Source of the DNA: the human T2T-CHM13v2.0 reference genome, Homo sapiens
Length of the DNA: 64,000 nucleotides
Direction: 5' to 3' (one strand)
NCBI RefSeq assembly: GCF_009914755.1
Contig: NC_060930.1
In this document: positions 8,064 to 48,682 of the stretch, in pieces
Layout of the letters: each line of letters starts with the position of its first letter
Numbering within the stretch: position 1 is the stretch's first letter
Made by a program: the position numbers and the translations under genes
The notes under the pieces: model-generated
What the model saw: only the letters and a program-made list of their open reading frames with translations
What the model was told of the DNA's origin: nothing
Database searches by the model: none

Positions 8064-8386
8064 AAAAATTTAATTCACAAAAAAATTTTAATCCTTTTGA
8101 GCTAATTATAGATTCACATGTAGTTGTAAGAAGTTACAAAGAGGCTAGGTGCAGTAGCTGACGCCCATGATCCCCGCACTTTGGGAGGCCGAGGCAGGCA
8201 GATCTCTTGAGGCCAGGAGTTTGAGACTAGCCTGGCCAACATGGCAAAACCCCATCTCTACAAAAAATTAGCAAAGCATGGTGGCACATGCCTGTAATTA
8301 CAGCTACTTGGGAGGCTGAGGCATGAGAATCACTTGACCTGGGATTACAAGTGTAATCCCAGCCATAGGCTGGGTGCAGTGGCTCA

Positions 8387-8796
<410 letters not shown>

Positions 8797-9335
8797 TTAC
8801 TTTAACATACATTTATGGATCTATTGTCTCTTTCCCTGTTCTAAAACTTTAAATTTCACAAGAATGAAGATTTTGCTGTCTTGTTTCCTGCTGTGTCCCC
8901 AGCATAAACAGCATAAAGAAGTGCCATAAGATAGAAATTTTTGTTTTCTGTTCACCAGTATATCCACAGCACCTAGAACAGCATCTGCTTTAGACTTATT
9001 AGATGAAGACTTAAAAAAAAAAGGAACAGCACTTCTGCACATATTTAGCACTTGATACATATTTGTGGAATAATTTCTATCATAACTAGCAGCTACTTCC
9101 TAATTTGATATGTAGCATCCCGTATTAACAGGACTTTTGTGAATGGAGAGGACATCTATTTATTCTTTGTTATGTGCCAAATATATTTGTATTAATCATA
9201 ACTCTTAATATTCCTTTAAAATTAAATAATTGTTTCCACAGCTCTTAAAATAGAATTTAGGAACCTAGCAACATGCCACTCATCCATTAACAGTGATAAA
9301 TTATTTAATTTTATAAACTTTTCATTAAAGTAACT

Positions 9336-47056: not shown

Positions 47057-47894
47057 ACACACACACAAATCTATTTTTTAAAAAATGATAGTAGGTAAGA
47101 CAAGCTTCAGCCCATTGCCCACCTTGTGGGTATAAAAGGGAAGCTTGATCACTGGTAGAGATTTGATAAAGACAAGTGTAGAGAGCTTCAGAAGTACCAC
47201 TCAGAGAGCTTGCCCTGTGTCCTCTAGAATTTGGGAATGGGGAGGCTGGTAACTGACCCATGCCTAACTAGTCCTAAGGCAAGAGGCTGGCCAGCTACCC
47301 TAGCTCCCACAAGCAAGAAGTGTCTTCAGTGAGAAGAGGTTACACGTCCATGAAAAGAGGAGCAAAGGCAGCTGCTTCCTGTGGACCAGATTGGAGCCAT
47401 CGTTTGTTGTCTTGAAAAGGACACCAGCAAGATGGCCCAGGCCAGCAGAGTGGATGTGGTGGAAGCACAAAGCAGGCAAGAAGAAAAAGAGCAAGGATTC
47501 AGTTCAAGAGATAAAGTGAGTGCTTTTGAGAGAAATCATGTTATGTGCCAGGCTGCAAAAATGATTAGACAGGGTTCCTGTCTCTGTGCTTTCCAGCCAT
47601 TGGAAGGTAAGTGGGTATTTAAATAATTTCAATATAGCGTGATGCTGAGGAGGTTAGATTTTATCCTGTAAGGCTCGGATGTCAGTGCCACTGAATGATT
47701 TAAGGGGATTTCACAATCAGATTTGGTGGCAATGTGAAATAGAGTTATGATGGGGCTAAATATGGAGGCAGAGAAAACAGTTAGATCAAAACATCAATTG
47801 CTGAATTCAAAATGAGTGTTAAGAGCCTGACCTAAGAAAGTGGTAGTAGATACGGAAAAGAAAAGGCAACGCAAGAAAAATCTGTGCAAGAGCC

Positions 47895-48044
47895 ACAACA
47901 GACAAAACAGGCACACAAGGATTAATATGAGATTTACAATCGTAGTACTTCCGATGGTCTTAACCCAAGTGACAGGGTTAAGATTTGCGAGGCCATCAGC
48001 AACTCCTGCAATTGCCTCAGTTCTTGGCACCAAATTTAAATGGG
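47895..48044 (-). mobile_element. Isolated HERV-K(HML-2) env TM-subunit fragment (150 bp)
   Basis: Translates to [49 protein letters not shown], nearly identical to the recalled HML-2 Env membrane-proximal/TM region. Confidence 0.9.
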
Positions 48045-48348
48045 GGTGATAAAAAGAGTGAAAAATAACAAAATAAGATACTATTTTATTCATACAGTCT
48101 GACCAAAAAAACTGGGTATATGAAAATTTTGAGAATGGGAAGAAACTGACACAATGCATTTTTGGCAGAAACGAAGACTGGTACAGACATTCTGGTGCTC
48201 AATGTACTCATATTTAGTAAAATTGGTTATGAAAACCATAAACATATCCTACATCACAGAAAGCACACTCCGAGAAAATTATCTGAGAAATTTCCCCATG
48301 TGCCCATAGAGGATACTCATCACAGCAGTTTGTAGAAGTAGGGAACTA

Positions 48349-48682
<334 letters not shown>

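What the first reader, a model, noticed from the sequence alone, without database searches (positions are those of the whole stretch)
47895..48044. Orphan 150-bp HERV-K(HML-2) env fragment with no LTR, TSD or poly-A, ending just before the rec/np9 splice acceptor
Seen: a crisp, CpG-retaining segment of HML-2 env between two unrelated old-looking repeat-derived flanks, with no duplicated target. By my recollection of the consensus (...TGTCTGTTGTTAG|TCTGCAGG) the match stops 3 nt short of the rec/np9 acceptor and just before the portion present in SVA SINE-R, so it is not an SVA. Inference: capture of HERV-K RNA/cDNA, possibly an excised intron end, at a double-strand break in germline or early embryo where HML-2 is expressed, perhaps with a local deletion.
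Basis: partly seen in the sequence, partly recalled or inferred. Interest (0 to 1): 0.75.

Follow-up and report, generated by a model that had tools for sequence, protein, structure and literature searches.

The report
Orphan HERV-K env patch, chromosome 6
A 150-base piece from the middle of a HERV-K (HML-2) envelope gene sits alone in old non-viral DNA between KHDC1 and DPPA5, most likely pasted in when a broken chromosome was repaired in an ape ancestor; it is a tidy fossil of a known repair process and has no sign of function.

Summary
Window 47895-48044 (minus strand) is HML-2 env. It encodes the membrane-proximal and membrane-spanning part of TM (PDB 9nnd, E 7e-26). It is 98-99% identical to young proviruses over exactly 150 bases, with sharp edges.

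A full provirus locus with both LTRs matches nothing else in the 64-kb window. No direct repeat abuts the junctions and there is no poly-A. Among the 40 scored genomic copies of this segment, it is the only one not embedded in a provirus.

It ends 3 bases before the canonical rec/np9 acceptor, where SVA SINE-R homology begins.

Its nearest relatives are two K111-type proviruses on the short arms of chromosomes 13 and 15. These carry a mutated acceptor, which weakens the "excised intron end" idea.

Best reading (about 0.6): a templated patch, probably from HML-2 RNA or cDNA, joined into a germ-line double-strand break. The closest analogues are class-2 templated sequence insertions and MuERV-L capture in mouse zygotes.

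The empty site, microhomology, any local deletion, ape orthologues and human polymorphism could not be tested. This is a new member of a known kind, of low to moderate interest.

The parts
47895..48044 (-). 150-base internal fragment of HML-2 env. It corresponds to provirus locus L015 (sense orientation) 8347-8496 and lies about 97 bases upstream of the 3' LTR. It encodes TM residues about 138-188: the membrane-proximal region and the membrane span.
   Evidence: It is 98-99% identical to young proviruses. It carries one change that no other young copy has (sense position 21, window 48024). All three CpGs are kept.
47893..47896 (.). Junction at the 3' end of the fragment in the HERV sense. Provirus homology stops after ...CTGTTGT, 3 bases before the canonical rec/np9 acceptor and before the first base shared with SVA SINE-R.
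   Evidence: Junction homology to donor-type sequence is not above chance: 1785 of 5000 shuffles reach the observed score.
48043..48046 (.). Junction at the 5' end of the fragment in the HERV sense. Homology starts at CCCATTTAAA. No landmark of the provirus was recognised there.
   Evidence: In one search, 925 to 2542 of 5000 shuffles reach the observed score.
47484..47894 (+). Left flank: old non-HERV DNA with a single diverged paralogue at C6:38616976-38617252 (L012). The homology runs to within about 2-14 bases of the junction. In L012 an Alu sits at each end of the shared stretch.
   Evidence: Identity is 72-77%. CpG observed/expected is 0.28.
48045..48394 (+). Right flank: AT-rich sequence that is unique in this genome, followed by an Alu from about 48395. 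Its family is not identified.
   Evidence: Searches found no relative. Comparison with the L012 sequence beyond its Alu is not significant: 210 of 300 shuffles reach the observed score.

Best explanation
A short internal stretch of HML-2 env nucleic acid, from a K111-like source, was used as a patch when a chromosome double-strand break was rejoined by end joining. This happened in the germ line or early embryo of a hominid ancestor, in old DNA between KHDC1 and DPPA5. The template was most likely HML-2 RNA copied by a reverse transcriptase, or ready-made cDNA. The piece was cut short at both ends, so it carries no LTR, no integrase-type or L1-type target duplication and no poly-A. It has since drifted as neutral DNA, and nothing points to a function.

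Shown: identity, exact limits, orphan status, absence of LTR, TSD and poly-A, nearest relatives, and one private change.

Inferred: the break, end joining, the RNA/cDNA template, the cell type and the date.
For: - Sharp-edged 150-base match at 98-99% identity to young proviruses.
- No other HERV-K or LTR5 in the 64 kb, tested against a whole provirus locus at high sensitivity.
- Old non-HERV DNA reaches the left junction; the paralogue alignment runs to within a few bases of it.
- No abutting direct repeat and no poly-A.
- All 39 other scored copies of this segment are flanked by provirus on both sides, so this one is the exception.
- No identical donor exists in this genome. The 30-mer over the diagnostic sites is unique to the window, and only three places lie within one mismatch. 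One private change was found. It is therefore not a fresh copy of an extant locus or a cell-line event.
- These features match the published definition of class-2 templated insertions: no TSD, no poly-A signal or tract, NHEJ-type junctions (passages of PMC5110952).
- They also match MuERV-L internal pieces of 327 and 357 bp captured at breaks in mouse zygotes, which lack LTRs and TSDs, and two natural mouse examples (passages of PMC4516963).
Against: - No empty site could be examined, so microdeletion, microhomology and untemplated bases, the positive marks of end joining, are untested.
- Junction similarity to donor-type sequence is at chance level.
- Nothing in 150 unspliced bases tells RNA from DNA as the template.
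- Whether the two flanks were contiguous before the event is unknown.
- The date is loose. One change in 150 bases gives about 6.7 My at 1e-9 per site per year, with a 95% range of 0.17-37 My.
Confidence: 0.6

Rival explanations
1. The same kind of patch, but copied from DNA rather than RNA. Either a replication or repair polymerase switched templates to a provirus elsewhere and back (MMBIR/FoSTeS-like), or a free DNA fragment of a provirus was ligated into the break.
For: The fragment is unspliced and has no poly-A, so nothing requires RNA. K111-type copies lie in recombination-prone satellite DNA (passages). The TSIP review keeps template switching open.
Against: The nearest provirus on the same chromosome (C6:78.9 Mb, same orientation) differs at both diagnostic sites as well as the private one, so it is not the donor. 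The nearest relatives are on other chromosomes. In the experimental systems, the over-representation of highly transcribed ERVs argued for RT products. The single private change is G to A in a GG context, as expected for cDNA editing, but this is one site only.
Confidence: 0.2
2. Remnant of an ordinary integrated provirus that lost about 8.3 kb on one side and about 1.1 kb on the other through later deletions.
For: It cannot be excluded without orthologues. Proviruses with internal deletions exist; for example L036 joins two distant proviral parts.
Against: No trace of LTR or other internal sequence is found anywhere in the 64 kb. Both deletions would have to remove every LTR base within the time of about one substitution per 150 bases. 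Old host DNA abuts the left edge.
Confidence: 0.07
3. L1-mediated retrocopy of a partial HML-2-containing RNA by target-primed reverse transcription. This would be like a class-1 templated insertion, or like the retrotransposed rec/np9 loci at 2q32.1 and 5q15.
For: Such L1-made HML-2 loci exist (passages). According to the annotation supplied with the finding, the window is rich in processed pseudogenes. The sequence next to the insert on the + strand is A-rich.
Against: No duplication of 5 bases or more abuts the insert. There is no poly-A in the HERV sense. The A-rich stretch on the other side is only about 70% A beside an insert that is about 99% intact, and it begins with non-A bases. The junctions are not at a TTTT/A site.
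Confidence: 0.04
4. Assembly artefact, or an event private to the sequenced cell line.
For: Only one assembly was available.
Against: No identical donor exists in the same genome, and the copy has its own substitution. A fresh artefact or a new event would copy an extant locus exactly.
Confidence: 0.02

Closest known systems
Class-2 templated sequence insertions / polymorphisms (Onozawa and Aplan; PMC5110952, passages read)
   Same: A short stretch templated from a distant locus, with no target duplication and no poly-A signal or tract. It is thought to patch a germ-line or embryonic double-strand break, probably through reverse-transcribed RNA.
   Different: The donors listed in the passages I read were LINE-1 parts, cDNAs, intergenic or intronic sequence and mitochondrial DNA; HERVs were named there only as a possible source of reverse transcriptase. 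Here the donor is HML-2 env. Polymorphism and junction marks could not be checked.
[quoted passage not shown] 2015, PMC4516963, passages read)
   Same: An internal ERV piece of a few hundred bases, truncated at both ends, with no LTR and no integrase-type duplication. The ERV is one that is expressed in the early embryo.
   Different: In mouse the break was made by Cas9 and microhomology was seen at the junctions. Here the break is inferred, and microhomology is untestable or at chance level. The species and the ERV differ.
Endonuclease-independent L1 insertion at breaks (Sen et al. 2007, PMC1920257; seen only in the search listing and abstract)
   Same: Insertion without a target duplication, often truncated, at a pre-existing lesion.
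   Different: The inserted sequence there is L1 itself. Here it is retroviral env.
SVA SINE-R module
   Same: Derived from the same end of HML-2 env. The boundary lies at the rec/np9 acceptor.
   Different: SINE-R starts at the first base after TAG and runs into the LTR. The fragment stops 3 bases before that point and shares no base with it. It has no VNTR, no Alu-like part and no poly-A.
L1-retrotransposed rec/np9 mRNA copies at 2q32.1 and 5q15 (Schmitt et al. 2015, PMC4351823, passages read)
   Same: HML-2 sequence placed in the genome without the viral integrase.
   Different: Those are spliced and have target duplications. This fragment is unspliced intron-side sequence without a duplication.

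Membership tests
HERV-K (HML-2) env sequence | High nucleotide identity to env of HML-2 proviruses, and a TM protein match | tested here: met
   98-99% over 150 bases to young proviruses. PDB 9nnd_a residues 138-188, E 7e-26.
Integrase-made provirus or solo LTR | LTR sequence at the site | tested here: not met
   The whole-provirus locus L015 hits the window only at 47895-48044.
Integrase-made provirus or solo LTR | Target duplication of 5-6 bases abutting the element | tested here: not met
   No abutting direct repeat. The junction bases differ.
SVA element | SINE-R part (env tail after the acceptor plus LTR), VNTR and poly-A | tested here: not met
   SVA copies start at L015rc 8500, whereas the fragment is 8347-8496. 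The fragment segment has 90 first-look candidates against 1505 for the next 156 bases.
L1 target-primed retrocopy / class-1 templated insertion | Target duplication of at least 5 bases | tested here: not met
L1 target-primed retrocopy / class-1 templated insertion | Poly-A tract at the 3' end of the insert, and a TTTT/A target | tested here: not met
   The sequence at both junctions has no A tract in the HERV sense. On the other side there is only an impure A-rich stretch that starts with GGTGAT.
Class-2 templated insertion / RT-product-mediated break repair | Template from a distant locus; insert truncated at both ends; no TSD, LTR or poly-A | tested here: met
Class-2 templated insertion / RT-product-mediated break repair | End-joining marks at the junctions (microhomology, microdeletion, untemplated bases) | tested here: inconclusive
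   No empty site was available. Donor-to-flank similarity is at chance level. A possible loss of target bases could not be shown.
Class-2 templated insertion / RT-product-mediated break repair | RNA or cDNA origin of the patch | not testable with these tools
   The fragment is unspliced. The only hint is one G-to-A change in a GG context.
K111-type (K105/K111) lineage as donor | Shared derived bases with K111-type copies | tested here: inconclusive
   One shared site (sense position 108) groups the fragment with the C13 and C15 copies, with support 80/89. Those copies show the GAATTC duplication, 48-base satellite flank and mutated acceptor described for K111 (passages). The acceptor site itself lies outside the fragment.

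The most novel reading that the evidence does not exclude
The patch is a cDNA of the 3' end of the excised env (rec/np9) intron. A linear or debranched intron RNA ending at the acceptor was primed by a broken DNA end, copied for about 150 bases and joined, with 3 bases lost. That would make it a fossil of intron-RNA-templated break repair in the hominid germ line, and the mirror image of the splicing event that gave SVA its SINE-R module at the very same boundary.
Probability: 0.1. Interest if true: 0.5.

Novelty: new member of a known kind. Interest (0 to 1): 0.25.

Why it matters
If the reading is right, this is a natural human counterpart of the capture of embryonically expressed endogenous retrovirus pieces at chromosome breaks, which has been shown experimentally in mouse zygotes. 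It would be a dated trace that K111-like HML-2 nucleic acid was available in hominid germ-line or early embryonic cells.

It also shows that standard HML-2 catalogues skip such pieces by design. They require an LTR plus more than half of a gene, or two proximal genes each more than half matched without an LTR (passages). A census of orphan internal fragments could therefore measure how often this repair route left marks.

The fragment itself has no visible function and changes no gene model.

Tried and rejected
- **Naming the flanks.** Pfam on 11 stop-free flank frames gave nothing useful. A PDB search with a right-flank frame gave only designed Kelch proteins, whose low E-values come from summing six identical weak repeats (each with i-E above 10), so I rejected it. 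Own-genome searches with the flanks as DNA and as protein found only the window plus one left-flank paralogue. A 30-mer of the left flank with up to 3 mismatches found only those two places. No paralogue exists inside the window. My recalled impressions of which repeat families the flanks belong to conflicted with each other and are not used.
- **Flank contiguity.** I tried to show that the right flank continues the left-flank element, using the paralogue beyond its Alu. The result was not significant: 210 of 300 shuffles reach the observed score.
- **Junction microhomology.** At chance level.
- **The 134-residue open frame across the fragment.** About 3% of random placements in this window do as well, so it is not pursued.
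- **An old copy sharing the 'private' base.** The copy at C11:58953995 shares it but is only 87% identical, so it is a coincidence and not a donor.
- **Literature.** Searches listed no report of this locus or of natural HML-2 capture at breaks. This is not proof that none exists. No supplementary files were opened.

Full report
**What is there**

Window 47895-48044 (T2T chr6:74,509,895-74,510,044) is a piece of HERV-K (HML-2) env when read on the minus strand. Its translation is open and matches residues 138-188 of a solved HERV-K TM chain (PDB 9nnd_a, E 7e-26). This is the membrane-proximal region and the membrane span.

A DNA search of the window's own genome scored 40 of 90 first-look candidates. 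The matches are the known young proviruses at 95-99% identity and older ones at about 90%, nearly all over query bases 1-150.

BLAST of the 3.1-kb locus against nine proviral loci shows homology over exactly these 150 bases and nowhere else. The only other hits are Alu-to-Alu matches, plus a noisy 6-base extension for two loci. The printed junctions show a clean switch from provirus to unrelated sequence on both sides.

**What is not there**

- I fetched a 9.8-kb locus that holds a whole provirus with both LTRs (L015) and compared it with the entire 64-kb window at word sizes 11 and 7. The only proviral hit is 47895-48044. All other hits map to L015 183-244, which is host flank outside the LTR and of Alu type. 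The flanks and the wider window therefore hold no LTR5 and no other HERV-K sequence.
- No direct repeat abuts the two junctions.
- In the HERV sense the fragment is followed by a T-rich rather than A-rich sequence. On the other side there is an impure A-rich stretch (about 70% A, starting with GGTGAT), which does not fit a poly-A tail beside an insert that is about 99% intact.
- Among the 40 scored copies of this segment, the other 39 are flanked by further proviral sequence on both sides. One of them, L036, has an internal proviral deletion. The window copy is the only orphan.

**The 3' boundary**

In provirus coordinates (L015 in sense orientation) the fragment is 8347-8496. The next three bases are TAG, followed by TCTGCAGG. 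Schmitt et al. 2015 give the canonical rec/np9 acceptor as TGTTAG|TCTG (PMC4351823, passages).

The 156 bases that follow the fragment have 1505 first-look candidates in the genome, against 90 for the fragment. Of the 40 scored hits:
- 21 cover the query from base 1;
- 14 start at query base 4, the first base after TAG;
- 3 start at base 3;
- 1 starts at base 9 and 1 at base 11.

Three such places were fetched, and all three start their provirus homology at 8500. One showed 37-40-base GC-rich tandem units next to that homology, and another a run of 29 A after it, as expected of SVA. I fetched 3 of the 14.

The fragment stops 3 bases before the acceptor and shares no base with SVA SINE-R.

**Source and age**

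Against 39 other copies, the window copy differs from the youngest human proviruses at three sites and from its nearest relative at two.

- *Private site.* Sense position 21 (window 48024) is A only in the window among the scored copies. A genome-wide look-up of the first 30 bases with up to one mismatch found 27 places. The window alone is exact, and 25 carry the same single difference at that site. One old copy at C11:58953995 has the same base but is only 87% identical overall, so this is a coincidence.
- *Shared site.* At position 108 the window shares its base only with two copies, on the short arms of chromosomes 13 and 15, and with the oldest lineages.
- *Exact haplotype.* The 30-mer covering positions 89-118 is unique to the window. 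Only the chromosome 13, 15 and 16 copies lie within one mismatch.
- *Tree.* A maximum-likelihood tree of the 150 columns groups the window with the chromosome 13 and 15 copies. Support is 80/89, resting on one site, and the end branch is one change.

The two nearest copies are 98.2% alike over 3150 bases, including their flank, and about 95.4% identical to the K108-type locus. Their LTR is followed by GAATTC and 48-base tandem repeats, and they read TGG in place of TAG at the acceptor. Those are the marks described for HERV-K111 (passages of PMC3759726 and of PMC4351823). K111 is taken to be the human form of K105, which chimpanzee also carries (passages of PMC3228705).

One private change in 150 bases gives about 6.7 My at 1e-9 per site per year, with a 95% range of 0.17-37 My. 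All three CpGs are kept. With three sites this constrains little; that judgement is my own estimate, not a tool result.

The absence of an identical donor in the same genome speaks against a very recent event or an artefact.

**The flanks**

The left flank (47484-47880, and probably to within about 2 bases of the junction) has a single paralogue at C6:38.6 Mb, 72-77% identical. In that locus an Alu sits at each end of the shared stretch. Old host DNA therefore abuts the fragment on that side.

The right flank has no relative that I could find by DNA, protein, Pfam or within-window comparison. The PDB hits to designed Kelch proteins are an artefact of six summed weak repeats. I could not show that the right flank continues the left-flank element. 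Whether bases were lost at the site remains open.

**Mechanism**

The features shown are:
- a distant template;
- truncation at both ends;
- no LTR;
- no target duplication;
- no poly-A.

These are the defining negatives of class-2 templated sequence insertions, which are read as patches in end-joining repair of germ-line or embryonic breaks, probably through reverse-transcribed RNA. They also match the MuERV-L internal pieces of 327 and 357 bp captured at Cas9 breaks in mouse zygotes, and two natural mouse cases.

I therefore rate a break-repair patch from HML-2 RNA or cDNA at about 0.6. The rivals are:
- a DNA-templated version of the same event, about 0.2;
- an eroded provirus, about 0.07;
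- an L1 target-primed retrocopy, about 0.04;
- an artefact, about 0.02.

The positive marks of end joining could not be tested. Similarity between the flanks and the donor sequence beyond the junctions is at chance level: 1785 and 1033 of 5000 shuffles reach the observed score for the chromosome 13 K111-type donor at the 3' and 5' junctions.

The neighbourhood of germ-line and early-embryo genes (KHDC1, DPPA5, KHDC3L, OOEP, from the annotation supplied with the finding) and the expression of HML-2 in such cells fit the scenario. The expression statement is general knowledge and was not tested here. These points are circumstantial.

**The intron-end idea**

The 3-base proximity to the acceptor is real. 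Three things weaken the reading that the template was an excised intron.
- The nearest relatives are K111-type copies. Their acceptor is mutated, and they splice 7 bases further down. If the donor already had that mutation, the intron end would lie 10 bases beyond the fragment.
- The 5' end lies about 153 bases upstream of the acceptor. The fragment contains several AG dinucleotides, and the last lies about 55 bases before the acceptor. This is read from the sequence. A branch point, and hence a lariat tail, would be much shorter than 150 bases. This step is inference.
- One coincidence among the many landmarks of a provirus is weak evidence.

I keep it as the most novel reading, at about 0.1.

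**Comparison and novelty**

This works like a class-2 templated insertion or RT-product-mediated repair. On the features I could test it qualifies as one; the junction features remain untested.
- It is not a provirus or solo LTR, because the LTR and duplication tests fail.
- It is not an SVA, because it shares no sequence with SINE-R.
- It is not an L1-type retrocopy, because the duplication and tail tests fail.

Standard HML-2 lists leave out such short pieces by their inclusion rule. My two full-text searches listed no report of this locus or of natural HML-2 capture at breaks. That does not prove that none exists, and I opened no supplementary files.

I file it as a new member of a known kind, with interest 0.25.

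Noticed in passing
window 48024 (sense position 21 of the fragment): The one change private to the window copy is G to A at the first G of a GG pair in the viral sense strand. That is the context edited by APOBEC3G on cDNA. It is a single site, so it is only a hint.
   Followed up: partly
window 47794-48198, minus strand: The env reading frame stays open for 134 residues across both junctions and contains the TM span. About 3% of random placements in this window give flanks that are equally open, and no transcript is annotated here.
   Followed up: yes
L002 (G000:C13:5385361-5388510) and L006 (G000:C15:2098560-2101709): Two K111-type proviruses on acrocentric short arms. They are 98.2% alike including their flank. 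The LTR is followed by GAATTC and 48-base tandem repeats, and the rec/np9 acceptor is mutated. They are the nearest relatives of the fragment in this genome.
   Followed up: partly
L063-L065 (G000:C12:102049400-102051400, C2:232022200-232024200, C16:9198900-9200900): SVA copies begin their HERV-K homology exactly at the first base after the canonical rec/np9 acceptor (L015rc 8500) and skip part of U3 (8922 to 9287). This fits acquisition of the SINE-R module by splicing.
   Followed up: partly
L012 (G000:C6:38615476-38618752) against window 47484-47880: The only paralogue of the left flank in the genome, 72-77% identical. In L012 an Alu sits at each end of the shared 400 bases. The family is not identified.
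   Followed up: partly
L066 (G000:C11:58953795-58954344): An old HML-2 copy, 87% identical to the fragment, with GG to AA at sense positions 21-22 and many other G-to-A differences in this stretch. It may be a hypermutated provirus.
   Followed up: no
window 48150-48332, plus strand: A 61-residue frame of the right flank gives low whole-sequence E-values to designed six-bladed Kelch proteins in the PDB. Each repeat alone scores about 10 bits (i-E above 10), so the total is an artefact of identical repeats in the targets.
   Followed up: yes
window 47824-47843 and 48096-48115: A 20-base direct repeat, 80% identical, lies 51 bases outside each junction. It is too diverged and too far from the junctions to be a target duplication of a young insert. 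Its meaning is unknown.
   Followed up: no
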